A program made the position numbers and the translations under genes. A stretch of DNA of 64,000 bases, taken from Nemertoderma westbladi (Eukaryota; Animalia; Xenacoelomorpha). The stretch lies in the NCBI GenBank assembly GCA_032718475.1, contig JAUCBJ010006746.1:19682-83681 (forward strand), given 5' to 3'. Each line of letters begins with the position of its first letter. Position 1 is the first letter of the stretch. Below the pieces are notes generated by a model. That model searched no databases, had not been told where the DNA came from, and saw nothing but the letters and a program-made list of their open reading frames with translations. This document shows, one piece after another, positions 17,252 to 58,519 of this stretch.

Positions 17252-17393
17252 CTACCTTTTCACCCCACCAATGAGCACTTTGCTGATAAAGTTTACTATC
17301 GCCGTAGAGGGCTGTTCGCTATCCATCTCCGCGAATACGTGGCACTCATTCACCGTAAACGACCCGAATTTACGAGCAACGAAACCAAAAATT
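17252..17393 (-). CDS. TNS: Tensin terminal coding exon (PTB domain C-terminus)
   Basis: Acceptor ttttttttcag|A. It encodes (K)[46 protein letters not shown], matching the tensin C-terminus (LFGFVARK...CHLFAE.D..QPASAIVNF.SKV). Its phase fits the exon ending at 56025. The exon is missing from the ORF track. Confidence 0.95.
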
Positions 17394-20300
17394 CTGAAAA
17401 AAAAATAAGAAAAATCGCATTAATTGATGAGAAAACTATAAACTGAGCTATCTGGGTCACCCAAACTCATCCTAAACTCTTTGTTTTCGTTGTAAAATAT
17501 TGGCAACGTAACATTGCCAAACCCAGTGCCTCCCTGCCTTAACAACGCTCTCTGTATCATCCTATTGTTACTTACTTAGCCTCCCTAACAACGCTGCCTG
17601 TAGCATCCTATTGTTACTTACTTAGCCTCCCTAACAGCGCTCCATGTAGCATCCTATTGTTACTTACTTAGCCTCCCTAACAACGCTCCATGTAGCATCC
17701 TATTGTTACTTACTTAGCCTCCCTAACAACGCTCCATGTAGCATCCCATTGTTACTTACTTAGCCTCCCTAACAACGCTCCATGTAGCATCCCATTGTTA
17801 CTTACTTAGCATCCCTAACAACGCTCTATGTAGCATCTTATTGTTACTTACTTAGCCTCCCTAACAACGCTCTCTGTAGCATCCTATTGTTACTTACTTA
17901 GCCTCCCTAACAACGCTCACTGTAGCATCCTATTGTTACTTACTTAGCCTCCCTAACAACGCTCTCTGTAGCATCCTATTGTTACTTACTTAGCCTCCCT
18001 AACAACGCTCCATGTAGCATCATATTGTTACTTACTTAGCCTCCCTAACAACGCTCCATGTAGCATCCTATTGTTACTTACTTAGCCTCCCTAACAACGC
18101 TCTCTGTAGCATCCTATTGTTACTTACTTAGCCTCCCTAACAACGCTCTCTGTATCATCCTATTGTTACTTACTTAGCCTCCCTAACAACGCTCCATGTA
18201 GCATCATATTGTTACTTACTTAGCCTCCCTAACAACGCTCCATGTAGCATCCTATTGTTACTTACTTAGCCTCCCTAACAACGCTCCCTGTAGCATCCTA
18301 TTGTTACTTACTTAGCCTCCCTAACAATGCTCCATGTAGCATCCTATTGTTACTTACTTAGCCTCCCTAACAACGCTCTCTGTATCATCCTATTGTTACT
18401 TACTTAGCCTCCCTAACAACGCTCCATGTAGCATCATATTGTTACTTACTTAGCCTCCCTAACAACGCTCCATGTAGCATCCTATTGTTACATACTTAGC
18501 CTCCCTAACAACGCTCCCTGTAGCATCCTATTGTTACTTACTTAGCCTCCCTAACAATGCTCCATGTAGCATCCTATTGTTACTTACTTAGCCTCCCTAA
18601 CAACGCTCCATGTAGCATCCTATTGTTACTTACTTAGCCTCCCTAACAACGCTCCCTGTAGCATCCTATTGTTACTTACTTAGCCTCCCTAACAACGCTC
18701 CCTGTAGCATCCTATTGTTACTTACTTAGCCTCCCTAACAACGCTCTCTGTAGCATCCTAATGTTACTTACTTAGCCTCCCTAACAACGCTCTCTGTAGC
18801 ATCCTAATGTTACTTACTTAGCCTCCCTAACAACGCTCCATGTAGCATCCTATTGTTACTTACTTAGCCTCCCTAACAACGCTCCATGTATCATCCTATT
18901 GTTACTTACTTAGCCTCCCTAACAACGCTCCATGTAGCATCCTATTGTTACTTACTTAGCCTCCCTAACAACGCTCCATGTAGCATCCCATTGTTACTTA
19001 CTTAGCCTCCCTAACAACGCTCCATGTAGCATCCTATTGTTACTTACTTAGCCTCCCTAACAACGCTCTCTGTAGCATCCTATTGTTACTTACTTAGCCT
19101 CCCTAACAACGCTCTCTGTATCATCCTATTGTTACTTACTTAGCCTCCCTAACAACGCTCCATGTAGCATCATATTGTTACTTACTTAGCCTCCCTAACA
19201 ACGCTCCATGTAGCATCCTATTGTTACTTACTTAGCCTCCCTAACAACGCTCCCTGTAGCATCCTATTGTTACTTACTTAGCCTCCCTAACAATGCTCCA
19301 TGTAGCATCCTATTGTTACTTACTTAGCCTCCCTAACAACGCTCTCTGTATCATCCTATTGTTACTTACTTAGCCTCCCTAACAACGCTCCATGTAGCAT
19401 CATATTGTTACTTACTTAGCCTCCCTAACAACGCTCCATGTAGCATCCTATTGTTACTTACTTAGCCTCCCTAACAACGCTCCCTGTAGCATCCTATTGT
19501 TACTTACTTAGCCTCCCTAACAATGCTCCATGTAGCATCCTATTGTTACTTACTTAGCCTCCCTAACAACGCTCCATGTAGCATCCTATTGTTACTTACT
19601 TAGCCTCCCTAACAACGCTCCCTGTAGCATCCTATTGTTACTTACTTAGCCTCCCTAACAACGCTCTCTGTAGCATCCTAATGTTACTTACTTAGCCTCC
19701 CTAACAACGCTCCATGTAGCATCCTATTGTTACTTACTTAGCCTCCCTAACAACGCTCCATGTAGCATCCTATTGTTACTTACTTAGCCTCCTTAACAAC
19801 GCTCCCTGTAGCATCCTATTGTTACTTACTTAGCCTCCCTAACAACGCTCCATGTAGCATCCTATTGTTACTTACTTAGCATCCCTAACAACGCTCTCTG
19901 TATCATCCTATTGTTACTTACTTAGCCTCCCTAACAACGCTCCCTGTAGCATCCTATTGTTACTTACTTAGCCTCCCTAACAACGCTCTCTGTAGCATCC
20001 TAATGTTACTTACTTAGCCTCCCTAACAACGCTCCATGTAGCATCCTATTGTTACTTACTTAGCCTCCCTAACAACGCTCCATGTAGCATCCTATTGTTA
20101 CTTACTTAGCCTCCTTAACAACGCTCCCTGTAGCATCCTATTGTTACTTACTTAGCCTCCCTAACAACGCTCCATGTAGCATCCTATTGTTACTTACTTA
20201 GCATCCCTAACAACGCTCTCTGTATCATCCTATTGTTACTTACTTAGCCTCCCTAACAACGCTCCCTGTAGCATCCTATTGTTACTTACTTAGCCTCCCT

Positions 20301-23300
20301 AACAACGCTCTCTGTAGCATCCTAATGTTACTTACTTAGCCTCCCTAACAACGCTCCATGTAGCATCCTATTGTTACTTACTTAGCCTCCCTAACAACGC
20401 TCCATGTAGCATCCTATTGTTACTTACTTAGCCTCCCTAACAACGCTCCATGTAGCATCCTATTGTTACTTACTTAGCCTCCCTAACAACGCTCTCTGTA
20501 TCATCCTATTGTTACTTACTTAGCCTCCTTAACAACGCTCCATGTAGCATCCTATTGTTACTTACTTAACCTCCCTAACAACGCTCCATGTAGCATCCTA
20601 TTGTTACTTACTTAGCCTCCCTAACAACGCTCTATGTAGCATCCTATTGTTACTTACTTAGCCTCCCTAACAACGCTCCATGTAGCATCCTATTGTTACT
20701 TACTTAGCCTCCCTAACAACGCTCTATGTAGCATCCTATTGTTACTTACTTAGCCTCCCTAACAACGCTCCATGTAGCATCCTATTGTTACTTACTTAGC
20801 CTCTCTAACAACGCTCCATGTAGCATCCTATTGTTACTTACTTAGCATCCCTAACAACGCTCTATGTAGCATCTTATTGTTACTTACTTAGCCTCCCTAA
20901 CAACGCTCCATGTAGCATCCCATTGTTACTTACTTAGCCTCCCTAACAACGCTCCATGTAGCATCCTATTGTTACTTACTTAGCCTCCCTAACAACGCTC
21001 ACTGTAGCATCCTATTGTTACTTACTTAGCCTCCCTAACAACGCTCCATGTAACATCCTATTGTTACTTACTTAGCCTCCCTAACAACGCTCCATGTAGC
21101 AGCCTATTGTTACTTACTTAGCCTCCCTAACAACGCTCTCTTTATCATCCTATTGTTACTTACTTAGCCTCCCTAACAACGCTATCTATAGCATCCTATT
21201 GTTACTTACTTAGCCTCCCTAACAACGCTCCATGTAGCATCCTATTGTTACTTACTTAGCCTCCCTAACAACGCTCTCTTTATCATCCTATTGTTACTTA
21301 CTTAGCCTCCCTAACAACGCTCTCTGTATCATCCTATTGTTACTTACTTAGCCTCCCTAACAACGCTCCATGTAGCATCCTATTGTTACTTACTTAGCCT
21401 CCCTAACAACGCTCACTGTAGCATCCTATTGTTACTTACTTAGCCTCCCTCACAACGCTCTCTGTAACATCCTATTGTTACTTACTTAGCCTCCCTAACA
21501 ACGCTCTCTGTAGCATCCTATTGTTACTTACTTAGCCTCCCTAACAACGCTCCATGTAGCATCCTATTGTTACTTACTTAGCCTCCCTAACAACGCTATC
21601 TATAGCATCCTATTGTTACTTACTTAGCCTCCCTAACAACGCTCCATGTAGCATCCTATTGTTACTTACTTAGCCTCCCTCACAACGCTCCATGTAGCAT
21701 CCTATTGTTACTTACTTAGCCTCCCTAACAACGCTCTCTGTATCATCCTATTGTTACTTACTTAGCCTCCCTAACAACGCTATCTATAGCATCCTATTGT
21801 TACTTACTTAGCCTCCCTAACAACGCTCCATGTAGCATCCTATTGTTACTTACTTAGCCTCCCTCACAACGCTCTCTGTATCATCCTATTGTTACTTACT
21901 TAGCCTCCCAAACAACGCTCTCTTTATCATCCTATTGTTACTTACTTAGCCTCCCTAACAACGCTCTCTGTATCATCCTATTGTTACTTACTTAGCCTCC
22001 CTCACAACGCTCTCTGTAACATCCTATTGTTACTTACTTAGCCTCCCTAACAACGCTCTCTGTAGCATCCTATTGTTACTTACTTAGCCTCCCTAACAAC
22101 GCTCCATGTAGCATCCTATTGTTACTTACTTAGCCTCCCTAACAACGCTATCTATAGCATCCTATTGTTACTTACTTAGCCTCCCTAACAACGCTCCATG
22201 TAGCATCCTATTGTTACTTACTTAGCCTCCCTAACAACGCTCTCTGTATCATCCTATTGTTACTTACTTAGCCTCCCTAACAACGCTCCATGTAGCATCC
22301 TATTGTTACTTACTTAGCCTCCCTAACAACGCTCTCTGTATCATCCTATTGTTACTTACTTAGCCTCCCTAACAACGCCCCATGTAGCATCCTATTGTTA
22401 CTTACTTAGCCTCCCTAACAACGCTCTCTGTAACATCCTATTGTTACTTACTTAGCCTCCCTAACAACGCTCTCTGTAGCATCCTATTGTTACTTACTTA
22501 GCCTCCCTAACAACGCTCCATGTAGCATCCTATTGTTACTTACTTAGCCTCCCTCACAACGCTCTCTGTAACATCCTATTGTTACTTACTTATCCTCCCT
22601 AACAACGCTCTCTGTAGCATCCTATTGTTACTTACTTAGCCTCCCTAACAACGCTCCATGTAGCATCCTATTGTTACTTACTTAGCCTCCCTAACAACGC
22701 TATCTGTAGCATCCTATTGTTACTTACTTAGCCTCCCTAACAACGCTCCATGTAGCATCCTATTGTTACTTACTTAGCCTCCCTAACAACGCTCCATGTA
22801 GCATCCTATTGTTACTTATTTAGCCTCCCTAACAACGCTCCATGTAGCATCCTATTGTTACTTACTTAACCTCCCTAACAACGCTCCATGTAGCATCCTA
22901 TTGTTACTTACTTAGCCTCCCTAACAACGCTCCCTGTAACATCCTATTGTTACTTACTTAGCCTCCCTAACAACGCTCTCTGTATCATCCTATTGTTACT
23001 TATTTAGCCTCCCTAACAACGCTCCATGTAGCATCCTATTGTTACTTACTTAGCATCCCTAACAACGCTCCATGTAGCATCCTATTGTTACTTATTTAGC
23101 ATCCCTAACAACGCTCTATGTAGCATCTTATTGTTACTTACTTAGCCTCCCTAACAACGCTCCATGTAGCATCCTATTGTTACTTACTTAGCATCCCTAA
23201 CAACGCTCTATGTAGCATCTTATTGTTACTTACTTAGCCTCCCTAACAACGCTCCATGTAGCATCCTATTGTTACTTACTTAGCATCCCTAACAACGCTC

Positions 23301-26300
23301 TATGTAGCATCTTATTGTTACTTACTTAGCCTCCCTAACAACGCTCTCTGTAGCATCCTATTGTTACTTACTTAGCCTCCCTAACAACGCTCTCTGTATC
23401 ATCCTATTGTTACTTACTTAGCCTCCCTAACAACGCTCCATGTAGCATCCTATTGTTACTTACTTAGCATCCCTAACAACGCTCTATGTAGCATCTTATT
23501 GTTACTTACTTAGCCTCCCTAACAACGCTCCATGTAGCATCCTATTGTTACTTACTTAACCTCCCTAACAACGCTCCATGTAGCATCCTATTGTTACTTA
23601 CTTAGCATCCCTAACAACGCTCTATGTAGCATCTTATTGTTACTTACTTAGCCTCCCTAACAACGCTCCATGTAGCATCCTATTGTTACTTACTTAGCAT
23701 CCCTAACAACGCTCTATGTAGCATCTTATTGTTACTTACTTAGCCTCCCTAACAACGCTCCATGTAGCATCCTATTGTTACTTACTTAGCCTCCCTAACA
23801 ACGCTCCATGTAGCATCCTATTGTTACTTATTTAGCCTCCCTAACAACGCTCCATGTAGCATCCTATTGTTACTTACTTAACCTCCCTAACAACGCTCCA
23901 TGTAGCATCATATTGTTACTTACTTAGCCTCCCTAACAACGCTCTCTGTAGCATCCTATTGTTACTTACTTAGCCTCCCTAACAACGCTCTCTGTAGCAT
24001 CCTATTGTTATTTACTTAGCCTCCCTAACAACGCTCCATGTAGCATCCCATTGTTACTTACTTAGCCTCCCTAACAACGCTCTCTGTATCATCTTATTGT
24101 TACTTACTTAGCCTCCCTAACAACGCTCCATGTAGCATCCTATTGTCACTTACTTAGCCTCCCTAACAACGCTCTCTGTATCATCCTATTGTCACTTACT
24201 TAGCCTCCCTAACAACGCTCTCTGTATCATCCTATTGTTACTTACTTAGCATCCCTAACAACGCTCTATGTAGCATCTTATTGTTACTTACTTAGCCTCC
24301 CTAACAACGCTCCATGTAGCATCCTATTGTTACTTACTTAGCCTCCCTAACAACGCTTTCTGTAACATCCTATTGTTACTTACTTAGCATCCCTAACAAC
24401 GCTCTATGTAGCATCTTATTGTTACTTACTTAGCCTCCCTAACAACGCTCCATGTAGCATCCTATTGTTACTTACTTAGCATCCCTAACAACGCTCTATG
24501 TAGCATCTTATTGTTACTTACTTAGCCTCCCTAACAACGCTCCATGTAGCATCCTATTGTTACTTACTTAGCCTCCCTAACAACGCTCCATGTAACATCC
24601 TATTGTTACTTACTTAGCCTCCCTAACAACGCTCCATGTAGCAGCCTATTGTTACTTACTTAGCCTCCCTAACAACGCTCCATGTAACATCCTATTGTTA
24701 CTTACTTAGCCTCCCTAACAACGCTCCATGTAGCAGCCTATTGTTACTTACTTAGCCTCCCTAACAACGCTCTCTTTATCATCCTATTGTTACTTACTTA
24801 GCCTCCCTAACAACGCTCTCTGTATCATCCTATTGTTACTTACTTAGCCTCCCTCACAACGCTCTCTGTAACATCCTATTGTTACTTACTTAGCCTCCCT
24901 AACAACGCTCTCTGTAGCATCCTATTGTTACTTACTTAGCCTCCCTAACAACGCTCCATGTAGCATCCTATTGTTACTTACTTAGCCTCCCTAACAACGC
25001 TATCTATAGCATCCTATTGTTACTTACTTAGCCTCCCTAACAACGCTCCATGTAGCATCCTATTGTTACTTACTTAGCCTCCCTAACAACGCTATCTATA
25101 GCATCCTATTGTTACTTACTTAGCCTCCCTAACAACGCTCTCTGTATCATCCTATTGTTACTTACTTAGCCTCCCTCACAACGCTCTCTGTAACATCCTA
25201 TTGTTACTTACTTAGCCTCCCTAACAACGCTCTCTGTAGCATCCTATTGTTACTTACTTAGCCTCCCTAACAACGCTCCATGTAGCATCCTATTGTTACT
25301 TACTTAGCCTCCCTAACAACGCTATCTATAGCATCCTATTGTTACTTACTTAGCATCCCTAACAACGCTCTATGTAGCATCTTATTGTTACTTACTTAGC
25401 CTCCCTAACAACGCTCCATGTAGCATCCTATTGTTACTTACTTAGCCTCCCTCACAACGCTCTCTGTAACATCCTATTGTTACTTACTTAGCCTCCCTAA
25501 CAACGCTCTCTGTAGCATCCTATTGTTACTTACTTAGCCTCCCTAACAACGCTCCATGTAGCATCCTATTGTTACTTACTTAGCCTCCCTCACAACGCTC
25601 TCTGTAACATCCTATTGTTACTTACTTATCCTCCCTAACAACGCTCTCTGTAGCATCCTATTGTTACTTACTTAGCCTCCCTAACAACGCTCCATGTAGC
25701 ATCCTATTGTTACTTACTTAGCCTCCCTAACAACGCTATCTGTAGCATCCTATTGTTACTTACTTACCCTCCCTAACAACGCTCCATGTAGCATCCTATT
25801 GTTACTTACTTAGCCTCCCTAACAACGCTCCATGTAGCATCCTATTGTTACTTATTTAGCCTCCCTAACAACGCTCCATGTAGCATCCTATTGTTACTTA
25901 CTTAACCTCCCTAACAACGCTCCATGTAGCATCCTATTGTTACTTACTTAGCCTCCCTAACAACGCTCCCTGTAACATCCTATTGTTACTTACTTAGCCT
26001 CCCTAACAACGCTCTCTGTATCATCCTATTGTTACTTATTTAGCCTCCCTAACAACGCTCCATGTAGCATCCTATTGTTACTTACTTAGCATCCCTAACA
26101 ACGCTCCATGTAGCATCCTATTGTTACTTATTTAGCATCCCTAACAACGCTCTATGTAGCATCTTATTGTTACTTACTTAGCCTCCCTAACAACGCTCCA
26201 TGTAGCATCCTATTGTTACTTACTTAGCATCCCTAACAACGCTCTATGTAGCATCTTATTGTTACTTACTTAGCCTCCCTAACAACGCTCCATGTAGCAT

Positions 26301-29300
26301 CCTATTGTTACTTACTTAGCATCCCTAACAACGCTCTATGTAGCATCTTATTGTTACTTACTTAGCCTCCCTAACAACGCTCCATGTAGCATCCTATTGT
26401 TACTTACTTAGCATCCCTAACAACGCTCTATGTAGCATCTTATTGTTACTTACTTAGCCTCCCTAACAACGCTCCATGTAGCATCCTATTGTTACTTACT
26501 TAACCTCCCTAACAACGCTCCATGTAGCATCCTATTGTTACTTACTTAGCATCCCTAACAACGCTCTATGTAGCATCTTATTGTTACTTACTTAGCCTCC
26601 CTAACAACGCTCCATGTAGCATCTTATTGTTACTTACTTAGCCTCCCTAACAACGCTCCATGTAGCATCCTATTGTTACTTACTTAACCTCCCTAACAAC
26701 GCTCCATGTAGCATCCTATTGTTACTTACTTAGCATCCCTAACAACGCTCTATGTAGCATCCTATTGTTACTTACTTAGCATCCCTAACAACGCTCTATG
26801 TAGCATCTTATTGTTACTTACTTAGCCTCCCTAACAACGCTCCATGTAGCATCCTATTGTTACTTACTTAACCTCCCTAACAACGCCCCATGTAGCATCC
26901 TATTGTTACTTACTTAGCATCCCTAACAACGCTCTCTGTAGCATCCTATTGTTACTTACTTAGCCTCCCTAACAACGCTCTCTGTAGCATCCTATTGTTA
27001 CTTTCTTAGCTTCCCTAACAACGCTCTATGTAGCATCTTATTGTTACTTACTTAGCCTCCCTAACAACGCTCCATGTAGCATCCTATTGTTACTTACTTA
27101 GCATCCCTAACAACGCTCTATGTAGCATCTTATTGTTACTTACTTAGCCTCCCTAACAACGCTCCATGTAGCATCCTATTGTTACTTACTTAGCCTCCCT
27201 AACAACGCTCCATGTAGCATCCTATTGTTACTTACTAGCCTCCCTAACAACGCTCCATGTAGCATCCTATTGTTACTTACTTAACCTCCCTAACAACGCT
27301 CCATGTAGCATCATATTGTTACTTACTTAGCCTCCCTAACAACGCTCTCTGTAGCATCCTATTGTTACTTACTTAGCCTCCCTAACAACGCTCTCTGTAG
27401 CATCCTATTGTTATTTACTTAGCCTCCCTAACAACGCTCCATGTAGCATCCCATTGTTACTTACTTAGCCTCCCTAACAACGCTCCATGTAGCATCCTAT
27501 TGTTACTTACTTAGCCTCCCTAACAACGCTCTCTGTATCATCTTATTGTTACTTACTTAGCCTCCCTAACAACGCTCCATGTAGCATCCTATTGTCACTT
27601 ACTTAGCCTCCCTAACAACGCTCTCTGTATCATCCTATTGTCACTTACTTAGCCTCCCTAACAACGCTCTCTGTATCATCCTATTGTTACTTACTTAGCA
27701 TCCCTAACAACGCTCTATGTAGCATCTTATTGTTACTTACTTAGCCTCCCTAACAACGCTCCATGTAGCATCCTATTGTTACTTACTTAGCCTCCCTAAC
27801 AACGCTTTCTGTAACATCCTATTGTTACTTACTTAGCATCCCTAACAACGCTCTATGTAGCATCTTATTGTTACTTACTTAGCCTCCCTAACAACGCTCC
27901 ATGTAGCATCCTATTGTTACTTACTTAGCATCCCTAACAACGCTCTATGTAGCATCTTATTGTTACTTACTTAGCCTCCCTAACAACGCTCCATGTAGCA
28001 TCCTATTGTTACTTTCTTAGCATCCCTAACAACGCTCTATGTAGCATCTTATTGTTACTTACTTAGCCTCCCTAACAACGCTCTCTTTATCATCCTATTG
28101 TTACTTACTTAGCCTCCCTAACAACGCTATCTGTATCATGCTATTGTTACTTACTTAGCCTCCCTAACAACGCTCCATGTAGCAGCCTATTGTTACTTAC
28201 TTAGCCTCCCTAACAACGCTCTCTTTATCATCCTATTGTTACTTACTTAGCCTCCCTAACAACGCTCCATGTAGCATCCTATTGTTACTTACTTAGCCTC
28301 CCTAACAACGCTCTCTGTAGCATCCTATTGTTACTTACTTAGCCTCCCTAACAACGCTCTCTGTATCATCCTATTGTTACTTACTTAGCCTCCCTAACAA
28401 CGCTCTCTGTAGCATCCTATTGTTACTTACTTAGCCTCCCTAACAACGCTCTCTGTATCATCCTATTGTTACTTACTTAGCCTCCCTCACAACGCTCTCT
28501 GTAACATCCTATTGTTACTTACTTAGCCTCCCTAAAAACGCTCTCTGTAGCATCCTATTGTTACTTACTTAGCCTCCCTAACAACGCTCCATGTAGCATC
28601 CTATTGTTACTTACTTAGCCTCCCTAACAACGCTATCTATAGCATCCTATTGTTACTTACTTAGCCTCCCTAACAACGCTCCATGTAGCATCCTATTGTT
28701 ACTTACTTAGCCTCCCTCACAACGCTCTCTGTAACATCCTATTGTTACTTACTTAGCCTCCCTAACAACGCTCTCTGTAGCATCCTATTGTTACTTACTT
28801 AGCCTCCCTAACAACGCTCCATGTAGCATCCTATTGTTACTTACTTAGCCTCCCTCACAACGCTCTCTGTAACATCCTATTGTTACTTACTTAGCCTCCC
28901 TAACAACGCTCTCTGTAGCATCCTATTGTTACTTACTTAGCCTCCCTAACAACGCTCCATGTAGCATCCTATTGTTACTTACTTAGCCTCCCTAACAACG
29001 CTATCTGTAGCATCCTATTGTTACTTACTTAGCCTCCCTAACAACGCTCCATGTAGCATCCTATTGTTACTTACTTAGCCTCCCTAACAACGCTCCATGT
29101 AGCATCCTATTGTTACTTATTTAGCCTCCCTAACAACGCTCCATGTAGCATCCTATTGTTACTTACTTAACCTCCCTAACAACGCTCCATGTAGCATCCT
29201 ATTGTTACTTACTTAGCCTCCCTAACAACGCTCCCTGTAACATCCTATTGTTACTTACTTAGCCTCCCTAACAACGCTCTCTGTATCATCCTATTGTTAC

Positions 29301-44300: not shown

Positions 44301-47300
44301 TAGCCTCCCTAACAACGCTCTCTGTAGCATCCTATTGTTACTTACTTAGCCTCCCTAACAACGCTCTCTGTAGCATCCTATTGTTATTTACTTAGCCTCC
44401 CTAACAACGCTCCCTGTAGCATCCTATTGTTACTTACTTAGCCTCCCTAACAACGCTCCATGTAGCATCCAATTGTTACGTACTTAGCCTCCCTAACAAC
44501 GCTCTCTGTATCATCTTATTGTTACTTACTTAGCCTCCCTAACAACGCTCCATGTAGCATCCTATTGTCACTTACTTAGCCTCCCTAACAACGCTCTCTG
44601 TATCATCCTATTGTCACTTACTTAGCCTCCCTAACAACGCTCTCTGTATCATCCTATTGTTACTTACTTAGCCTCCCTAACAACGCTCTCTGTATCATCC
44701 TATTGTCACTTACTTAGCCTCCCTAACAACGCTCCATGTAGCATCCTATTGTTACTTACTTAGCCTCCCTAACAACGCTCTCTGTATCATCCTATTGTCA
44801 CTTACTTAGCCTCCCTAACAACGCTTTCTGTAACATCCTATTGTTACTTACTTAGCCTCCCTAACAACGCTCTCTGTATCATCCTATTGTTACTTATTTA
44901 GCCTCCCTAACAACGCTCTCTTTATCATCCTATTGTTACTTACTTAGCCTCCCTAACAACGCTCTCTGTATCATGCTATTGTTACTTACTTAGCCTCCCT
45001 CACAACGCTCTCTGTAACATCCTATTGTTACTTACTTAGCCTCCCTAACAACGCTCTCTGTATCATCCTATTGTTACTTATTTAGCCTCCCTAACAACGC
45101 TCTCTTTATCATCCTATTGTCACTTACTTAGCCTCCCTAACAACGCTCCATGTAGCATCCTATTGTTACTTACTTAGCCTCCCTAACAACGCTCCATGTA
45201 GCATCCTATTGTTACTTACTTAGCCTCCCTAACAACGCTCTCTGTATCATCCTATTGTCACTTACTTAGCCTCCCTAACAACGCTTTCTGTAACATCCTA
45301 TTGTTACTTACTTAGCCTCCCTAACAACGCTCTCTGTATCATCCTATTGTTACTTACTTAGCCTCCCTAACAACGCTCTCTTTATCATCCTATTGTCACT
45401 TACTTAGCCTCCCTAACAACGCTCCATGTAGCATCCTATTGTTACTTACTTAGCCTCCCTAACAACGCTCCATGTAGCATCCTATTGTTACTTACTTAGC
45501 CTCCCTAACAACGCTCTCTGTATCATCCTATTGTCACTTACTTAGCCTCCCTAACAACGCTTTCTGTAACATCCTATTGTTACTTACTCAGCCTCCCTAA
45601 CAACGCTCTCTGTATCATCCTATTGTTACTTACTTAGCCTCCCTAACAACGCTCTCTGTATCATCCTATTGTCACTTACTTAGCCTCCCTAACAACGCTC
45701 CATGTAGCATCCTATTGTTACTTACTTAGCCTCCCTAACAACGCTCTCTGTATCATCCTATTGTCACTTACTTAGCCTCCCTAACAACGCTTTCTGTAAC
45801 ATCCTATTGTTACTTACTTAGCCTCCCTAACAACGCTCTCTGTATCATCCTATTGTTACTTATTTAGCCTCCCTAACAACGCTCTCTTTATCATCCTATT
45901 GTTACTTACTTAGCCTCCCTAACAACGCTCTCTGTATCATGCTATTGTTACTTACTTAGCCTCCCTCTCAACGCTCTCTGTAACATCCTATTGTTACTTA
46001 CTTAGCCTCCCTAACAACGCTCTCTGTAACATCCTATTGTTACTTACTTAGCCTCCCTAACAACGCTCCATGTAGCATCCTATTGTTACTTACTTAGCCT
46101 CCCTAACAACGCTCTCTGTAGCATCCTATTGTAACTTACTTAGCCTCCCTAACAACGCTCCATGTAGCATCCTATTGTTACTTACTTAGCCTCCCTAACA
46201 ACGCTCTCTGTATCATCCTATTGTTACTTATTTAGCCTCCCTAACAACGCTCTCTTTATCATCCTATTGTTACTTACTTAGCCTCCCTAACAACGCTCTC
46301 TGTATCATGCTATTGTTACTTACTTAGCCTCCCTAACAACGCTCCATGTAGCATCCTATTGTTACTTACTTAGCCTCCCTAACAACGCTCCATGTAGCAT
46401 CCTATTGTTACTTACTTAGCCTCCCTAACAACGCTCCCTGTAGCATCCTATTGTTACTTACTTAGCCTCCCTAACAACGCTCCATGTAGCATCCTATTGT
46501 TACTTACTTAGCCTCCCTAACAACGCTCCCTGTAGCATCCTATTGTTACTTACTTAGCCTCCCTAACAACGCTCCCTGTAGCATCCTATTGTTACTTACT
46601 TAGCCTCCCTAACAACGCTCTCTGTAGCATCCTATTGTTACTTACTTAGCCTCCCTAACAACGCTCTCTGTATCATCCTATTGTCACTTACTTAGCCTCC
46701 CTAACAACGCTCCCTGTAGCATCCTATTGTTACTTACTTAGCCTCCCTAACAACGCTCCCTGTAGCATCCTATTGTTACTTACTTAGCCTCCCTAACAAC
46801 GCTCCCTGTAGCATCCTATTGTTACTTACTTAGCCTCCCTAACAACGCTCTCTGTAGCATCCTATTGTTACTTACTTAGCCTCCCTAACAACGCTCCCTG
46901 TAGCATCCTATTGTTACTTACTTAGCCTCCCTAACAACGCTCCCTGTAGCATCCTATTGTTACTTACTTAGCCTCCCTAACAACGCTCCCTGTAGCATCC
47001 TATTGTTACTTACTTAGCCTCCCTAACAACGCTCTCTGTAGCATCCTATTGTTACTTACTTAGCCTCCCTAACAACGCTCCCTGTAGCATCCTATTGTTA
47101 CTTACTTAGCCTCCCTAACAACGCTCCCTGTAGCATCCTATTGTTACTTACTTAGCCTCCCTAACAACGCTCCCTGTAGCATCCTATTGTTACTTACTTA
47201 GCCTCCCTAACAACGCTCCATGTAGCATCCTATTGTTACTTACTTAGCCTCCCTAACAACGCTCCCTGTAGCATCCTATTGTTACTTACTTAGCCTCCCT

Positions 47301-50300
47301 AACAACGCTCCCTGTAGCATCCTATTGTTACTTACTTAGCCTCCCTAACAACGCTCTCTGTAGCATCCTATTGTTACTTACTTAGCCTCCCTAACAACGC
47401 TCTCTGTAGCATCCTATTGTCACTTACTTAGCCTCCCTAACAACGCTCCCTGTAGCATCCTATTGTTACTTACTTAGCCTCCCTAACAACGCTCCCTGTA
47501 GCATCCTATTGTTACTTACTTAGCCTCCCTAACAACGCTCCCTGTAGCATCCTATTGTTACTTACTTAGCCTCCCTAACAACGCTCCATGTAGCATCATA
47601 TTGTCACTTACTTAGCCTCCCTAACAACGCTCCATGTAGCATCCTATTGTTACTTACTTAGCCTCCCTAACAACGCTCCATGTAGCATCCTATTGTTACT
47701 TACTTAGCCTCCCTAACAACGCTCCCTGTAGCATCCTATTGTTACTTACTTAGCCTCCCTAACAACGCTCCATGTAGCATCCTATTGTTACTTACTTAGC
47801 CTCCCTAACAACGCTCCCTGTAGCATCCTATTGTTACTTACTTAGCCTCCCTAACAACGCTCCCTGTAGCATCCTATTGTTACTTACTTAGCCTCCCTAA
47901 CAACGCTCTCTGTAGCATCCTATTGTTACTTACTTAGCCTCCCTAACAACGCTCTCTGTATCATCCTATTGTCACTTACTTAGCCTCCCTAACAACGCTC
48001 CCTGTAGCATCCTATTGTTACTTACTTAGCCTCCCTAACAACGCTCCCTGTAGCATCCTATTGTTACTTACTTAGCCTCCCTAACAACGCTCCCTGTAGC
48101 ATCCTATTGTTACTTACTTAGCCTCCCTAACAACGCTCTCTGTAGCATCCTATTGTTACTTACTTAGCCTCCCTAACAACGCTCCCTGTAGCATCCTATT
48201 GTTACTTACTTAGCCTCCCTAACAACGCTCCCTGTAGCATCCTATTGTTACTTACTTAGCCTCCCTAACAACGCTCCCTGTAGCATCCTATTGTTACTTA
48301 CTTAGCCTCCCTAACAACGCTCTCTGTAGCATCCTATTGTTACTTACTTAGCCTCCCTAACAACGCTCCCTGTAGCATCCTATTGTTACTTACTTAGCCT
48401 CCCTAACAACGCTCCCTGTAGCATCCTATTGTTACTTACTTAGCCTCCCTAACAACGCTCCCTGTAGCATCCTATTGTTACTTACTTAGCCTCCCTAACA
48501 ACGCTCCATGTAGCATCCTATTGTTACTTACTTAGCCTCCCTAACAACGCTCCCTGTAGCATCCTATTGTTACTTACTTAGCCTCCCTAACAACGCTCCC
48601 TGTAGCATCCTATTGTTACTTACTTAGCCTCCCTAACAACGCTCTCTGTAGCATCCTATTGTTACTTACTTAGCCTCCCTAACAACGCTCTCTGTATCAT
48701 CCTATTGTCACTTACTTAGCCTCCCTAACAACGCTCCCTGTAGCATCCTATTGTTACTTACTTAGCCTCCCTAACAACGCTCCCTGTAGCATCCTATTGT
48801 TACTTACTTAGCCTCCCTAACAACGCTCCCTGTAGCATCCTATTGTTACTTACTTAGCCTCCCTAACAACGCTCCATGTAGCATCATATTGTCACTTACT
48901 TAGCCTCCCTAACAACGCTCTCTGTAGCATCCTATTGTTAATTACTTAGCCTCCCTAACAACGCTCCCTGTAGCATCCTATTGTTACTTACTTAGCCTCC
49001 CTAACAACGCTCCATGTAGCATCATATTGTCACTTACTTAGCCTCCCTAACAACGCTCTCTGTAGCATCCCATTGTTACTTACTTAGCCTCCCTAACAAC
49101 GCTCCCTGTAGCATCCTATTGTTACTTACTTAGCCTCCCTAACAACGCTCCCTGTAGCATCATATTGTTACTTACTTAGCCTCCCTAACAACGCTCCCTG
49201 TAGCATCCTATTGTTACTTACTTAGCCTCCCTAACAACGCTCCATGTAGCATCATATTGTCACTTACTTAGCCTCCCTAACAACGCTCTCTGTAGCATCC
49301 TATTGTTACTTACTTAGCCTCCCTAACAACGCTCCCTGTAGCATCCTATTGTTACTTACTTAGCCTCCCTAACAACGCTCCATGTAGCATCATATTGTCA
49401 CTTACTTAGCCTCCCTAACAACGCTCTCTGTAGCATCCCATTGTTACTTACTTAGCCTCCCTAACAACGCTCCCTGTAGCATCCTATTGTTACTTACTTA
49501 GCCTCCCTAACAACGCTCTCTGTATCATGCTATTGTTACTTACTTAGCCTCCCTCACAACGCTCTCTGTAACATCCTATTGTTACTTACTTAGCCTCCCT
49601 AACAACGCTCTCTGTATCATCCTATTGTTACTTATTTAGCCTCCCTAACAACGCTCTCTTTATCATCCTATTGTTACTTACTTAGCCTCCCTAACAACGC
49701 TCCCTGTAGCATCCTATTGTTACTTACTTAGCCTCCCTAACAACGCTCTCTGTAGCATCCTATTGTTACTTACTTAGCCTCCCTAACAACGCTCTCTGTA
49801 TCATCCTATTGTCACTTACTTAGCCTCCCTAACAACGCTCCCTGTAGCATCCTATTGTTACTTACTTAGCCTCCCTAACAACGCTCCCTGTAGCATCCTA
49901 TTGTTACTTACTTAGCCTCCCTAACAACGCTCCCTGTAGCATCCTATTGTTACTTACTTAGCCTCCCTAACAACGCTCTCTGTAGCATCCTATTGTTACT
50001 TACTTAGCCTCCCTAACAACGCTCTCTGTATCATCCTATTGTCACTTACTTAGCCTCCCTAACAACGCTTTCTGTAACATCCTATTGTTACTTACTTAGC
50101 CTCCCTAACAACGCTCTCTGTATCATCCTATTGTTACTTATTTAGCCTCCCTAACAACGCTCTCTTTATCATCCTATTGTCACTTACTTAGCCTCCCTAA
50201 CAACGCTTTCTGTAACATCCTATTGTTACTTACTTAGCCTCCCTAACAACGCTCTCTGTATCATCCTATTGTTACTTATTTAGCCTCCCTAACAACGCTC

Positions 50301-53300
50301 TCTTTATCATCCTATTGTTACTTACTTAGCCTCCCTAACAACGCTCTCTGTATCATGCTATTGTTACTTACTTAGCCTCCCTCACAACGCTCTCTGTAAC
50401 ATCCTATTGTTACTTACTTAGCCTCCCTAACAACGCTCTCTGTAGCATCCTATTGTTACTTACTTAGCCTCCCTAACAACGCTCCATGTAGCATCCTATT
50501 GTTACTTTCTTAGCCTCGCTAACAACGCTCTCTGTATCATCCTATTGTTACTTATTTAGCCTCCCTAACAACGCTCTCTTTATCATCCTATTGTTACTTA
50601 CTTAGCCTCCCTAACAACGCTCTCTGTATCATGCTATTGTTACTTACTTAGCCTCCCTAACAACGCTCTCTGTATCATCCTATTGTTACTTATTTAGCCT
50701 CCCTAACAACGCTCTCTTTATCATCCTATTGTTACTTACTTAGCCTCCCTAACAACGCTCTCTGTATCATGCTATTGTTACTTACTTAGCCTCCCTCACA
50801 ACGCTCTCTGTAACATCCTATTGTTACTTACTTAGCCTCCCTAACAACGCTCTCTGTAGCATCCTATTGTTACTTACTTAGCCTCCCTAACAACGCTCCA
50901 TGTAGCATCCTATTGTTACTTTCTTAGCCTCGCTAACAACGCTCTCTGTAACATCCTATTGTTACTTACTTAGCCTCCCTAACAACGCTCTCTGTAGCAT
51001 CCTATTGTTACTTACTTAGCCTCCCTAACAACGCTCCATGTAGCATCCTATTGTTACTTTCTTAGCCTCGCTAACAACGCTCTCTTTATCATCCTATTGT
51101 TACTTACTTAGCCTCCCTAACAACGCTCTCTGTATCATGCTATTGTTACTTACTTAGCCTCCCTCACAACGCTCTCTGTAACATCCTATTGTTACTTACT
51201 TAGCCTCCCTAACAACGCTCTCTGTAGCATCCTATTGTTACTTTCTTAGCCTCCCTAACAACGCTCCATGTAGCATCCTATTGTTACTTACTTAGCCTCC
51301 CTCACAACGCTCTCTGTAACATCCTATTGTTACTTACTTAGCCTCCCTAACAACGCTCTCTGTAGCATCCTATTGTTACTTTCTTAGCCTCCCTAACAAC
51401 GCTCCATGTAGCATCCTATTGTTACTTTCTTAGCCTCGCTAACAACGCTCTCTTTATCATCCTATTGTTACTTACTTAGCCTCCCTAACAACGCTCTCTG
51501 TATCATGCTATTGTTACTTACTTAGCCTCCCTCACAACGCTCTCTGTAACATCCTATTGTTACTTACTTAGCCTCCCTAACAACGCTCTCTGTAGCATCC
51601 TATTGTTACTTTCTTAGCCTCCCTAACAACGCTCCATGTAGCATCCTATTGTTACTTACTAGCCTCCCTAACAACGCTCCATGTAGCATCCTATTGTTAC
51701 TTACTTAGCCTCCCTAACAACGCTCCATGTAGCATCCTATTGTTACTTACTTAACCTCCCTAACAACGCTCCATGTAGCATCCTATTGTTACTTACTTAG
51801 CATCCCTAACAACGCTCTATGTAGCATCCTATTGTTACTTACTTAGCCTCCCTAACAACGCTCCATGTAGCATCCTATTGTTACTTACTTAACCTCCCTA
51901 ACAACGCTCCATGTAGCATCCTATTGTTACTTACTAGCCTCCCTAACAACGCTCCATGTAGCATCCTATTGTTACTTACTTAGCCTCCCTAACAACGCTC
52001 CATGTAGCATCCTATTGTTACTTACTTAACCTCCCTAACAACGCTCCATGTAGCATCCTATTGTTACTTACTTAGCCTCCCTAACAACGCTCCATGTAGC
52101 ATCCTATTGTTACTTTCTTAGCCTCCCTAACAACGCTCCATGTAGCATCCTATTGTTACTTTCTTAGCCTCGCTAACAACGCTCTCTTTATCATCCTATT
52201 GTTACTTACTTAGCCTCCCTAACAACGCTCTCTGTATCATGCTATTGTTACTTACTTAGCCTCCCTCACAACGCTCTCTGTAACATCCTATTGTTACTTA
52301 CTTAGCCTCCCTAACAACGCTCTCTGTAGCATCCTATTGTTACTTTCTTAGCCTCCCTAACAACGCTCCATGTAGCATCCTATTGTTACTTACTAGCCTC
52401 CCTAACAACGCTCCATGTAGCATCCTATTGTTACTTACTTAGCCTCCCTAACAACGCTCCATGTAGCATCCTATTGTTACTTACTTAACCTCCCTAACAA
52501 CGCTCCATGTAGCATCCTATTGTTACTTACTTAGCATCCCTAACAACGCTCCATGTAGCATCTTATTGTTACTTACTTAGCCTCCCTAACAACGCTCTAT
52601 GTAGCATCTTATTGTTACTTACTTAGCCTCCCTAACAACGCTCCATGTAGCATCCTATTGTTACTTACTTACCCTCCCTAACAACGCTCTCTGTAGCATC
52701 CTATTGTTACTTACTAGCCTCCCTAACAACGCTCCATGTAGCATCCTATTGTTACTTACTTAGCCTCCCTAACAACGCTCCATGTAGCATCCTATTGTTA
52801 CTTACTTAACCTCCCTAACAACGCTCCATGTAGCATCCTATTGTTACTTACTTAGCATCCCTAACAACGCTCTCTGTATCATCTTATTGTTACTTACTTA
52901 GCCTCCCTAACAACGCTCCATGTAGCATCCTATTGTCACTTACTTAGCCTCCCTAACGACGCTCTCTGTAGCATCCTATTGTTACTTACTTAGCCTCCCT
53001 AACAACGCTCTCTGTATCATCCTATTGTCACTTACTTAGCCTCCCTAACAACGCTCTCTGTAGCATCCTATTGTTACTTACTTAGCCTCACTAACAACGC
53101 TCTCTGTAGGATCCTATTGTTACTTACTTAGCCTCCCTAACAACGCTCTCTGTATCATGCTATTGTTACTTACTTAGCCTCCCTAACGACGCTCTCTGTA
53201 GCATCCTATTGTTACTTACTTAGCCTCCCTAACAACGCTCTCTGTATCATCCTATTGTCACTTACTTAGCCTCCCTAACAACGCTCTCTGTAGGATCCTA

Positions 53301-56024
53301 TTGTTACTTACTTAGCCTCACTAACAACGCTCCATGTAGCATCCTATTGTTACTTACTTAGCCTCCCTAACAACGCTCTCTGTATCATCCTATTGTCACT
53401 TACTTAGCCTCCCTAACAACGCTCTCTGTAGGATCCTATTGTTACTTACTTAACCTCCCTAACAACGCTCCATGTAGCATCCTATTGTTACTTACTTAGC
53501 CTCCCTAACAACGCTCCATGTAGCATCCTATTGTTACTTACTTAGCCTCCCTAACGACGCTCTCTGTAGCATCCTATTGTTACTTACTTAGCCTCCCTAA
53601 CAACGCTCTCTGTATCATCCTATTGTCACTTACTTAGCCTCCCTAACAACGCTCTCTGTAGGATCCTATTGTTACTTACTTAACCTCCCTAACAACGCTC
53701 CATGTAGCATCCTATTGTTACTTACTTAGCCTCCCTAACAACGCTCCATGTAGCATCCTATTGTTACTTTCTTAGCCTCCCTAACAACGCTCCATGTAGC
53801 ATCCTATTGTTACTTTCTTAGCCTCGCTAACAACGCTCTCTTTATCATCCTATTGTTACTTACTTAGCCTCCCTAACAACGCTCTCTGTATCATGCTATT
53901 GTTACTTACTTAGCCTCCCTCACAACGCTCTCTGTAACATCCTATTGTTACTTACTTAGCCTCCCTAACAACGCTCTCTGTAGCATCCTATTGTTACTTT
54001 CTTAGCCTCCCTAACAACGCTCCATGTAGCATCCTATTGTTACTTACTAGCCTCCCTAACAACGCTCCATGTAGCATCCTATTGTTACTTACTTAGCCTC
54101 CCTAACAACGCTCCATGTAGCATCCTATTGTTACTTACTTAACCTCCCTAACAACGCTCCATGTAGCATCCTATTGTTACTTACTTAGCATCCCTAACAA
54201 CGCTCTATGTAGCATCCTATTGTTACTTACTTAGCCTCCTTAACAACGCTCCATGTAGCATCCCATTGTTACTTACTTAGCCTCCCTAACAACGCTCTCT
54301 GTATCATCTTATTGTTACTTACTTAGCCTCCCTAACAACGCTCCATGTAGCATCCTATTGTCACTTACTTAGCCTCCCTAACGACGCTCTCTGTAGCATC
54401 CTATTGTTACTTACTTAGCCTCCCTAACAACGCTCTCTGTATCATCCTATTGTCACTTACTTAGCCTCCCTAACAACGCTCTCTGTAGCATCCTATTGTT
54501 ACTTACTTAGCCTCACTAACAACGCTCTCTGTAGGATCCTATTGTTACTTACTTAGCCTCCCTAACAACGCTCTCTGTATCATGCTATTGTTACTTACTT
54601 AGCCTCCCTAACGACGCTCTCTGTAGCATCCTATTGTTACTTACTTAGCCTCCCTAACAACGCTCTCTGTATCATCCTATTGTCACTTACTTAGCCTCCC
54701 TAACAACGCTCCATGTAGCATCCTATTGTCACTTACTTAGCCTCCCTAACGACGCTCTCTGTAGCATCCTATTGTTACTTACTTAGCCTCCCTAACAACG
54801 CTCTCTGTATCATCCTATTGTCACTTACTTAGCCTCCCTAACAACGCTCTCTGTAGGATCCTATTGTTACTTACTTAGCCTCACTAACAACGCTCTCTGT
54901 AGGATCCTATTGTTACTTACTTAGCCTCCCTAACAACGCTCTCTGTATCATGCTATTGTTACTTACTTAGCCTCCCTAACAACGCTCCATGTAGCATCCT
55001 ATTGTCACTTACTTAGCCTCCCTAACAACGCTCTATGTAGCATCCTATTGTTACTTACTTAGCCTCCCTAACAACGCTCTCTGTATCATCCTATTGTCAC
55101 TTACTTAGCCTCCCTAACAACGCTCTCTGTAGCATCCTATTGTTACTTACTTAGCCTCCCTAACAACGCTCTCTGTAGCATCCTATTGTCACTTACTTAG
55201 CCTCCCTAACAACGCTCTCTGTAGCATCCTATTGTTACTTACTTAGCCTCCCTAACAACGCTCTCTGTATCATCCTATTGTCACTTACTTAGACTCCCTA
55301 ACAATGCTCCATGTAGCATCCTATTGTCACTTACTTAGCCTCCCTAACAACGCTCTCTGTAGGATCCTATTGTCACTTACTTAGCATCCCTAACAACGCT
55401 CCATGTAGCATCCTATTGTCACTTACTTAGCCTCCCTAACAACGCTCTCTGTAGGATCCTATTGTTACTTACTTAGCCTCCCTAACAACGCTCTCTGTAT
55501 CATCCTATTGTCACTTACTTAGACTCCCTAACAATGCTCCATGTAGCATCCTATTGTCACTTACTTAGCCTCCCTAACAACGCTCTCTGTAGGATCCTAT
55601 TGTTACTTACTTAGCCTCCCTAACAACGCTCTCTGTATCATCCTATTGTCACTTACTTAGCCTCCCTAACAACGCTCACTGTAGCATCCTATTGTTACTT
55701 ACTTAGCCTCCCTAACAACGCTCCATGTAGCATCCTATTTATACTTACTTAGCCTCCCAAACAACGCACTCTGTAGCATCCTATTGTTACTTACTTAGCC
55801 TCCCTAACAACGCTCTCTGTAGCATCCTATTGTTACTTACTTAGCCTCCCTAACAACGCTCTCTGTAGCATCCTATTGTCACTTACTTAGCCTCCCTAAC
55901 AACGCTCTCTGTAGCATCCTATTGTTACTTACTTAGCCTCCCTAACAACGCTCTCTGTATCATCTTATTGTCACTTACTTAGCCTCCCTAACAACGCTCC
56001 CTGTAGCATCATATTGTTACTTAC
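17394..56024 (-). other. Giant last intron of tensin (38,631 bp, phase 2)
   Basis: Donor AA|GTAAGT at 56024 and acceptor TTTTCAG ending at 17394. Only ~145 bp (17394-17539) is non-satellite. Confidence 0.92.
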
Positions 56025-56058
56025 TTAGCCTCCCTAACAACGCTCCCTGTAGCATCCT
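17540..56058. repeat. 46-bp tandem satellite, ~837 copies, consensus cctccctaacaacgctc(ca/tc/ta/cc)tgtagcatcctattgttacttacttag
   Basis: The period of 46 is read directly (e.g. ctccctaaca at 17581 and 17627). The array is uninterrupted and head-to-tail, and its last 34 nt overlap the tensin exon. Confidence 0.99.
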
Positions 56059-56179
56059 TCCTAACCCATCGACGCTCCCTGGGATCCATCCCGCAGTAAG
56101 TGACCGTCTCTGTCTGGTAGTGTCGCCTTAGGAACTTCTTACGTTCGTTGTCTGTCAACGTAATCCCTTTAGAGTGTAC
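56025..56179 (-). CDS. TNS: Tensin penultimate coding exon (PTB domain)
   Basis: Acceptor ttgtctcgcag|G. It encodes VHSKGITLTDNERKKFLRRHYQTETVTYCGMDPRERRWVRKDATGSVVREA(K), cf. tensin [21 protein letters not shown]...DP.ER.W. Length is 155 nt and the donor is AA|gtaagt. Confidence 0.95.
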
Positions 56180-57535: not shown

Positions 57536-57747
57536 CTTAAAGTGAACGCAGATTGGTTCGGGTAGGGGCCGCATGCTGAATGCTTCGGACACCGCCCGTT
57601 CTATGGAAGGGGGGCCGGTAAGCATCTCCGTATTGCAGTAGTGGATGTAGATGACGTTACAACCGACACCGCGTTCCAGTAGATGCTGACTGCCCGACTC
57701 GTCGGTGGGAGTAGCAGACCCATCCACGCCAGGAGAATCGGTTACGT
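57536..57747 (-). CDS. TNS: Tensin exon (SH2-PTB linker and PTB N-terminus)
   Basis: ctattgttgtag|AC ... AAG|gtttgt. It encodes VTDSPG...LLERGVGCNVIYIHYCNTEMLTGPPSIERAVSE...ICVHFK, cf. tensin LL.QGAACNV.....V..ESLTGP.AI..A...IVHFK. Confidence 0.93.
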
Positions 57748-58336: not shown

Positions 58337-58519
58337 CTGTAAAGTCTGAAAGGAACAGTTTACAGGGGAGGGCCAATGGAGTTACTGAATGTTGGTAGAC
58401 AAGGGCCGGTAGACTGGAGAATGTCGGCTCGTTCGCACATCCCTTCAGTCGGACGCCACGAGAGTTCGATTCGATAAGAAAGTGGCGAACCAGTTCGTTT
58501 TCCGTTCCAGAATTATCAT
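58337..58519 (-). CDS. TNS: Tensin exon (SH2 C-terminal half)
   Basis: ttttgctcag|AT ... G|gtgaga. It encodes [60 protein letters not shown], with the tensin SH2 signature ELVRHFLIE...[24 protein letters not shown]. Confidence 0.96.

What the first reader, a model, noticed from the sequence alone, without database searches (positions are those of the whole stretch)
17540..56030. Splice-site choice problem: only the first of ~800 identical donors is productive; possible U1 snRNP sponge or NMD switch
Seen: most monomers keep CTAA|GTAAGTAA with the same 32-nt upstream context as the real donor. A minority lose the GT (ctaaataagt and ctaagaaagt variants). Reading past the first donor gives GCT AAG TAA, an immediate stop. 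Use of any later donor would therefore truncate the PTB domain before IFGFVARK. Established: GUAAGUA pairs with the U1 snRNA 5' end, duplicated donors compete, and U1 binding suppresses premature polyadenylation and promotes nuclear retention. Inference: the locus may rely on strict co-transcriptional commitment to the first donor. Alternatively it may remove the intron stepwise, or shed many NMD-targeted or PTB-less isoforms. Each nascent transcript could bind hundreds of U1 snRNPs.
Basis: inference. Interest (0 to 1): 0.8.

Follow-up and report, generated by a model that had tools for sequence, protein, structure and literature searches.

The report
Giant splice-donor repeat in tensin intron
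The end of one exon of an animal tensin gene, splice signal included, is copied 837 times in a row into a 38.6-kb intron; repeats of this kind are known from human and lancelet genes at up to about 26 copies, and the cell likely uses the first signal here too, though no RNA could be examined.

Summary
A 46-bp unit (last 32 nt of a tensin PTB exon plus 14 intron nt) is repeated 837 times on the minus strand, 56056-17540; 783 of 837 copies keep GTAAGT, 40 lose GT. In one-step splicing only donor 1 (56025/56024) gives a complete PTB domain; later donors stop 46 residues short.

This is a known kind: boundary-spanning minisatellites of human F7, 6-16, CBS, LMNB2, PDGF and amphioxus 'mirages', where the first donor is used alone or with the next two. 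The scan found this kind before on other DNA (25 findings, at least 13 genomes). New is the size, about 30 times the published cases I saw.

Sponge or NMD switch finds no support: donor positions vary like other positions (6 alleles seen, 6.1 expected; weak test), U1 pairing is middling, the intron has no AATAAA/ATTAAA, and the array offers no acceptor for stepwise removal. Splicing itself is untested. The choice problem is real: the 46-nt spacing just passes the 45 nt at which HeLa data favour the downstream donor, and the last donor would bound a 182-nt intron. Verdict: extreme member of a known kind, likely drifting repeat DNA.

The parts
17540..56056 (-). Tandem array of 837 full 46-bp units plus a partial one; each unit is the last 32 nt of the PTB exon plus the first 14 nt of the intron
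56011..56056 (-). First unit: the true exon end and donor 1 (last exon base 56025, GT at 56024-56023, in-frame TAA ending at 56021)
56025..56179 (-). 155-nt coding exon, middle of the tensin PTB domain
   Evidence: Pfam PF08416 positions 46-83, E 1.8e-08; PDB tensin 1wvh_A, E 4.8e-15
17394..56024 (-). 38,631-nt GT-AG intron (predicted), all repeat except the last 146 nt
17394..17575 (-). Last intact donor copy (G at 17575) to the acceptor: a potential 182-nt intron whose use would keep the stop
17394..17539 (-). Non-repeat end of the intron with a U-rich tract and AG acceptor (11 of 12 pyrimidines before the AG)
17252..17393 (-). Stop-bearing exon, last 46 residues of the PTB domain
   Evidence: Pfam PF08416 positions 85-130 of 131, E 2.9e-06
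57536..57747 (-). Tensin exon: SH2-PTB linker and start of PTB
58337..58519 (-). Tensin exon: second half of the SH2 domain
   Evidence: 1937 of 1960 candidates at E<=0.001, named ones being tensins or SH2/PTB proteins
58932..59072 (-). Tensin exon: first half of the SH2 domain
   Evidence: Pfam PF00017, E 3.3e-04
63614..63787 (-). Tensin exon: region before SH2 and its first residues
   Evidence: open frame, aligns to tensins

Best explanation
A 46-base stretch spanning the end of a tensin PTB exon and its splice donor is repeated 837 times into the intron, likely by slippage and unequal exchange without selection on the copies, and the cell likely splices mostly from the first donor, so that full-length tensin would still be made. 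Shown: the unit's make-up, the copy counts, the open six-exon frame through donor 1, the stop that any later donor keeps, nested duplications of 66-137 monomers, and no detectable difference in variability at donor positions. Inferred: donor 1 wins because it is transcribed first, closes a 155-nt exon with the upstream acceptor (donors 2, 3, 4, 5 would give 201, 247, 293, 339 nt), and stays held by polymerase-bound U1 while the 38.6 kb are made; the other copies have no acceptor of their own and pair only moderately with U1. Some leak to donors 2-3 is expected, as in human 6-16 and CBS. Donor 2 would leave the stop 42 nt before the junction (predicted truncated protein), donor 3 onward 88 nt or more (predicted decay). 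That leak would be a cost, not a switch.
For: Anatomy equals the published class. Six exons joined through donor 1 give one 334-residue frame, up to 56% identical to animal tensins, with junction residues and RRHY-to-FGF spacing (36) like homologs (34 in 17 and 36 in 16 of the 50 of 120 that had both motifs). GTAAGT positions: 6 distinct alleles against 6.1 base-matched expected, permutation P 0.46/0.73; exon-derived positions: 8 synonymous to 27 non-synonymous alleles against 23:73 possible, p=1.0. Nested block duplications. Predicted U1 duplex -7.2 kcal/mol, against -6.5, -6.8, -7.6, -11.1 for the four other donors of the gene and -14.0 for the consensus. [quoted passage not shown] Amphioxus mirages do not disturb regular splicing by RT-PCR (PMC3087553). 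The upstream donor stays paired to Pol II-tethered U1 during intron synthesis in human cells (PMC8316553).
Against: No junction has been observed for this locus, so first-donor use is borrowed from other genes with at most about 26 copies. With two strong duplicated donors 45 nt or more apart, HeLa and in vitro splicing goes about 100% to the downstream one (PMC3413131), and the unit here is 46 nt. The last donor would bound a 182-nt intron, shorter than the gene's other four (412-4541 nt). PMC8316553 also found U1 and Pol II on cryptic intronic donors. The variability test would detect only 1 or fewer, or 11 or more, alleles, and alleles are not independent events. The mechanistic papers are mammalian; this animal's lineage is unresolved (best relative 56%, long branch).
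Confidence: 0.7

Rival explanations
1. Downstream donors win often. By the intron-proximal rule or by intron definition, the acceptor pairs with later copies, above all the last one (182-nt intron), so this allele makes much stop-bearing RNA and little full-length tensin: a harmful but tolerated expansion.
For: 46-nt spacing is past the 45-nt threshold for downstream preference; both sites bind U1 in complex E (PMC3413131). The last donor is intact at 17575. 574 of 837 copies equal donor 1 over -20..+6.
Against: The downstream bias needs high U1 occupancy and fell when U1 was reduced; this donor lacks -1G and scores -7.2 against -14.0 kcal/mol. LMNB2 and PDGF units exceed 45 nt yet use the first site. 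Donor 1 is made 38.5 kb earlier. Six exons remain open and tensin-like.
Confidence: 0.15
2. The array is kept by selection as a regulatory device: it loads many U1 snRNPs on the nascent RNA (sponge, nuclear retention) or switches tensin off through decay of transcripts spliced from later donors.
For: 783 of 837 GTAAGT sites with 7 contiguous predicted U1 pairs; every later donor keeps a stop; the first copy without GT is number 45, though P=0.115 under random placement.
Against: No sign that donor positions are spared or purged. The sites are intact because copies are young (2.7 differences in 46 between random pairs). No AATAAA/ATTAAA to suppress. Surplus U1 is displaced at complex A (PMC3413131). 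A few nascent transcripts would hold at most thousands of U1 against about a million per human cell (figure recalled, from no call; unknown for this animal).
Confidence: 0.05
3. The intron is removed stepwise, by recursive splicing or through in-frame micro-exons (9 or 18 nt) cut from monomers.
For: Each unit has AG dinucleotides 9 and 18 nt before the next donor, which would keep the frame; 28 AGGT tetramers occur in the array.
Against: No AGGTAAG in the intron; none of 5,568 AGs in the array has more than 6 pyrimidines in the 12 nt before it, against 8-11 for the six real acceptors; the longest pyrimidine run is 5.
Confidence: 0.03
4. The question does not arise in life: this copy of tensin is silent or decaying, or the array length is inflated by the assembly or private to one haplotype.
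For: The window's tensin sits on a long branch (0.60, third longest of 76 terminal branches), which fits relaxed constraint as well as a fast-evolving lineage.
Against: All six exons are open with GT-AG borders. The array has 99 monomer types in nested, diverged blocks, with longest perfect block match 23 monomers, which a collapsed or copied assembly error would hardly give.
Confidence: 0.07

Closest known systems
Human F7 intron 7 37-bp VNTR (Borensztajn et al. 2006, PMC1557585; read parts 1-4 of 6: abstract, introduction, results, part of the discussion)
   Same: The first repeat unit spans the exon-intron boundary, so identical donors follow the true one; later donors mostly bring a premature stop.
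   Different: 5-9 copies against 837; unit 37 against 46 nt; 4 exon bases per unit against 32; first-site use shown by minigenes there, untested here.
Human 6-16 intron 2, CBS intron 13, LMNB2 and PDGF intron 4 minisatellites (seen only as summarised in the introduction of PMC1557585)
   Same: Donor-spanning tandem repeats; LMNB2 (100 bp) and PDGF (81 bp) have spacing above 45 nt like this one.
   Different: 10-26 copies. 6-16 and CBS also use two further sites; LMNB2 and PDGF use only the authentic one. Usage here is unknown.
Amphioxus 'mirage' minisatellites: Adh3, globins BflGb6 and BflGb9 (Ebner et al. 2010, PMC3087553; passages; Adh3 only as cited there)
   Same: Invertebrate tandem duplications of an exon-intron boundary, with concerted evolution inside the cluster and divergent edge copies; reported not to disturb splicing.
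   Different: 3-6 units in BflGb6; this array is satellite-sized (38.5 kb) with nested block duplications.
Duplicated strong 5' splice sites in model pre-mRNAs (Hodson et al. 2012, PMC3413131; passages)
   Same: Identical donors in tandem, each able to bind U1.
   Different: Two strong sites in short substrates, where the downstream site wins at 45 nt or more; here hundreds of moderate sites over 38 kb made co-transcriptionally.
Satellite-filled giant introns of Drosophila Y fertility genes (PMC11207136; search listing and start of abstract only)
   Same: An intron enlarged by orders of magnitude with tandem repeat DNA.
   Different: From recall, those satellites are simple repeats not made of the gene's own donor; those introns reach hundreds of kb to Mb.

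Membership tests
Boundary-spanning minisatellite (F7 type, amphioxus 'mirage') | Head-to-tail tandem repeat of a 10-160 bp unit | tested here: met
   46-bp unit, 837.5 copies, 94% matches
Boundary-spanning minisatellite (F7 type, amphioxus 'mirage') | Terminal unit spans a true exon-intron boundary of a protein-coding gene | tested here: met
   First unit = last 32 nt of the tensin PTB exon plus 14 intron nt; frame continues into the next exon. The junction is predicted from homology, not seen in RNA.
Boundary-spanning minisatellite (F7 type, amphioxus 'mirage') | Many but not all copies keep the splice signal | tested here: met
   797 of 837 keep GT, 783 GTAAGT, 40 lose GT
Boundary-spanning minisatellite (F7 type, amphioxus 'mirage') | Concerted evolution within the cluster | tested here: met
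   99 types in local runs and nested duplications with offsets of 28-137 monomers
Boundary-spanning minisatellite (F7 type, amphioxus 'mirage') | Authentic site used alone or with the nearest copies | not testable with these tools
   Needs RNA reads of this organism
Boundary-spanning minisatellite (F7 type, amphioxus 'mirage') | Copy number varies between alleles | not testable with these tools
   One sequence only; no genome held
Recursively spliced intron | Internal pyrimidine tract plus AG directly followed by a regenerated donor | tested here: not met
   0 AGGTAAG; at most 6 of 12 pyrimidines before any of 5,568 AGs in the array
Selected U1 decoy or unproductive-splicing (NMD) switch | Decoy donors conserved above their surroundings | tested here: inconclusive
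   6 alleles against 6.1 expected, no excess conservation, but low power and no orthologue
Selected U1 decoy or unproductive-splicing (NMD) switch | Regulated stop-bearing isoform or U1 enrichment on the RNA | not testable with these tools
   Needs RNA-seq with decay blocked, or U1 CLIP
Tensin (SH2 followed by C-terminal PTB) | SH2 then PTB at the C-terminus with tensin motifs | tested here: met
   PF00017 and PF08416, PDB tensins, 50-56% identity to named tensins over about 300 residues

The most novel reading that the evidence does not exclude
At 837 copies the array is no longer silent: a measurable share of transcripts splice from later donors or stall with many U1 snRNPs bound, so array length works as a heritable dial on full-length tensin, with donor 2 giving a decay-escaping tensin that lacks half its PTB domain. 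It would be the first boundary repeat large enough to overload first-donor commitment.
Probability: 0.12. Interest if true: 0.65.

Novelty: new member of a known kind. Interest (0 to 1): 0.3.

Why it matters
The kind is known, so the value is scale. Two published rules give opposite predictions here: first-site scanning (F7) and downstream preference at 45 nt or more (duplicated strong sites). A 46-nt unit, 783 intact donors and a last donor only 182 nt from the acceptor make this an unusually hard natural test. If nearly all junctions use donor 1, commitment to the first donor survives about 800 competitors over 38 kb in a non-mammalian animal. If not, repeat length tunes or cripples a focal-adhesion gene. 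One long-read RNA set from this organism would decide it.

Tried and rejected
RNA evidence: the one search for sequencing runs (window:12600-17530, kind rna) had no RNA holder listed; that is no evidence on expression, and no reads could be laid. No whole genome is held, so paralogues, a second haplotype and other such arrays in this genome were not examined. Homolog search with the 51-residue PTB exon scored none of 5 candidates; the SH2 exon worked. Lineage: the representative search, names of 10 of its 104 hits (8 of 10 clusters named, insects and nematodes) and a 76-sequence tree (only rows covering most of SH2-PTB, 19 names supplied by me) found no close relative; the grouping with nematodes (support 0.96) may be long-branch attraction and I draw nothing from it. 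The 589-residue neighbour had no homolog among 7996 candidates and no Pfam match; the structure-atlas look-up did not complete. Rfam: 0 matches in the window. A coding role for the array is rejected: longest open frame 32 codons sense, 57 antisense. Exon skipping as a rescue is rejected: it shifts the frame and stops after 7 residues. Paper searches returned 0 papers; searches returned nothing on a larger donor array or on a tandem-donor U1 sponge (listings only; the library lacks most subscription journals). Passages of PMC2812944 describe repeats at exon-intron boundaries in human duplicates but no donor counts; passages of PMC10078293 and PMC11289892 did not bear on the question. No supplements were read. 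Earlier-findings look-ups by place, by sequence and by one word set were empty.
Full report
What is there. The window is animal DNA. On the minus strand lie six exons of the 3' part of a tensin gene: 63787-63614, 59072-58932, 58519-58337, 57747-57536, 56179-56025 and 17393-17252, all with AG and GT borders. Joined, they give one 334-residue frame, up to 56% identical to the 120 homologs then held. Pfam finds SH2 and two consecutive halves of the PTB profile, positions 46-83 and 85-130 of 131, on either side of the large intron; the PDB search returns tensins. The junction through donor 1 reads Ala-Lys then Ile-Phe-Gly-Phe, like the commonest homolog context (Ser-Ala-Lys then Cys-Phe-Gly-Phe in 17 of the 52 of 120 with the motif), and the RRHY-to-FGF distance of 36 is one of the two modal values. 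The intron is thus predicted as 56024-17394, 38,631 nt; the other four are 412, 589, 1356 and 4541 nt (from the coordinates). No close relative was found, so the lineage is open.

The array. Period 46, 837.5 copies, 17540-56058. Each unit is the exon's last 32 nt and the intron's first 14; only 146 nt at the intron's end are not repeat. There are 837 full monomers of 99 types. 797 keep GT, 783 GTAAGT, 683 the full CTAA|GTAAGTAA; 25 carry G+1A and 15 T+2A. Only 57 have the exon's exact 32-mer. Types come in local runs and nested block duplications with offsets of 28, 66, 71, 135 and 137 monomers; random pairs differ at 2.7 of 46 positions. This is how tandem repeats turn over by slippage and unequal exchange (established; also described for amphioxus mirages).

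Consequence of donor choice. Donor 1 gives 98 residues from the start of the exon; donors 2, 3 and 837 give 52, losing the last 46 residues of PTB. The stop lies 42 nt before the junction for donor 2, 88 for donor 3, 134 for donor 4. By the mammalian 50-55 nt rule (recalled) donor 2 would escape decay and give a truncated protein, later ones would be decay targets; whether this animal follows the rule is unknown. Skipping the exon shifts the frame.

(1) Selection on donors: 52 distinct minor alleles over 46 positions; GTAAGT has 6 against 6.1 expected from base-matched positions; four measures over four position sets gave no one-sided permutation P below 0.13. The test would see only 1 or fewer, or 11 or more, alleles, and copies are not independent, so this is absence of a signal, not proof of neutrality. 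The exon-derived part has lost protein constraint in the copies: 8 synonymous to 27 non-synonymous alleles against 23:73 possible. (2) U1 strength: predicted duplex with the U1 5' end (motif recalled; pseudouridines not modelled) is -7.2 kcal/mol, within the -6.5 to -11.1 of the gene's other four donors and half the consensus, -14.0; the site lacks -1G. (3) Premature polyadenylation: no AATAAA or ATTAAA in the intron's sense strand; some weaker variants occur (21 GATAAA, 15 AAGAAA, 10 AGTAAA, 1 TATAAA). (4) Stepwise removal: no AGGTAAG, 28 AGGT, and no AG among 5,568 with more than 6 of 12 preceding pyrimidines, against 8-11 for the six real acceptors. In-frame micro-exons of 9 or 18 nt are possible on paper only. 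(5) Junction use and U1 binding could not be tested.

What is known. PMC1557585 (parts 1-4 of 6 read) describes minisatellites whose first monomer spans an exon-intron boundary: F7 (37 bp, 5-9 copies), 6-16 (25 pseudo-sites, the nearest two also used), CBS (15-20 copies, two also used), LMNB2 (100 bp, 10-15) and PDGF (81 bp, 16-18), the last two using only the authentic site. [quoted passage not shown] PMC3087553 (passages) describes amphioxus 'mirages' of the same build, not disturbing splicing. Against this, PMC3413131 (passages) reports that two strong duplicated donors both bind U1, that the downstream one is used about 100% at separations of 45 nt or more, that the bias falls when U1 is reduced, and that surplus U1 is displaced at complex A. 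PMC8316553 (abstract and passages) finds the upstream donor paired to Pol II-tethered U1 during intron synthesis, and also U1 with Pol II on cryptic intronic donors. Earlier notes of this scan list 25 findings of the kind in at least 13 genomes; the 15 shown give 12 to about 155 copies where a number is stated. They are unchecked AI notes; one led me to the name 'mirage', which I then checked in PMC3087553. My paper searches showed no larger donor array, within a library that lacks most subscription journals.

How it most likely works. The boundary was duplicated, the unit expanded to satellite size, and the copies drift. Donor 1 is made first, closes a 155-nt exon with the upstream acceptor and is likely held by polymerase-bound U1 until the acceptor appears; donors 2-5 would give exons of 201-339 nt and the rest have no acceptor partner. 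Small leak to the next copies is expected. I put this at 0.70. The main rival (0.15) is frequent use of later donors, because 46 nt is past the 45-nt threshold and the last donor bounds a 182-nt intron; the moderate donor strength and the LMNB2 and PDGF cases argue against it. A selected sponge or switch gets 0.05, stepwise removal 0.03, a silent copy or inflated assembly 0.07.

Verdict. Real, correctly seen, and a member of a described class by every sequence feature I could test; the two features needing RNA or other alleles are untested. It is the largest case I saw, about 30 times the published copy numbers, which makes it a good natural test of first-donor commitment but not a new kind of system. 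Interest 0.3.

Noticed in passing
window 17500-17561 (minus strand): The array ends in a partial unit that breaks off before its donor; the following bases look like a decayed copy with a short insertion, as edge copies of such clusters often do.
   Followed up: partly
window 59242-61658: The 4.5-kb tensin intron holds two blocks of a 32-bp minisatellite flanking two clusters of a 15-bp unit in both orientations (long perfect inverted arms); looks like a non-autonomous transposon or foldback element.
   Followed up: partly
window about 56600-57500 (minus strand): By eye, a broken reverse-transcriptase-like (LINE) fragment with a YADD-type motif in the 1356-nt tensin intron, same strand as the gene; the motif reading is recalled, not searched.
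   Followed up: no
window 4607-7228 (minus strand): 874-codon open frame with THAP and P-element transposase domains, apparently an intact intronless P-like element.
   Followed up: partly
window 12650-14416 (minus strand): 589-codon open frame with a Lys/Arg/Ser-rich first part and several hydrophobic stretches; no Pfam match and no homolog among 7996 candidates.
   Followed up: partly
window 1-1442 (minus strand): Two adjacent open frames (284 and at least 218 codons) without Pfam match for the one tested, the second with Ala/Glu-rich repeats; possibly the start of a retroelement.
   Followed up: no
window 2743-3324: Two tandem copies of a 289-bp unit at 90% match.
   Followed up: no
window 56025-56056 against the array: The commonest array variants would change the encoded residues if copied into the first unit (for example at -23, -22, -28, -6), so homogenisation of the array could rewrite the exon end; the exon's own type survives in 56 other copies, mostly at monomers 134-210.
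   Followed up: partly
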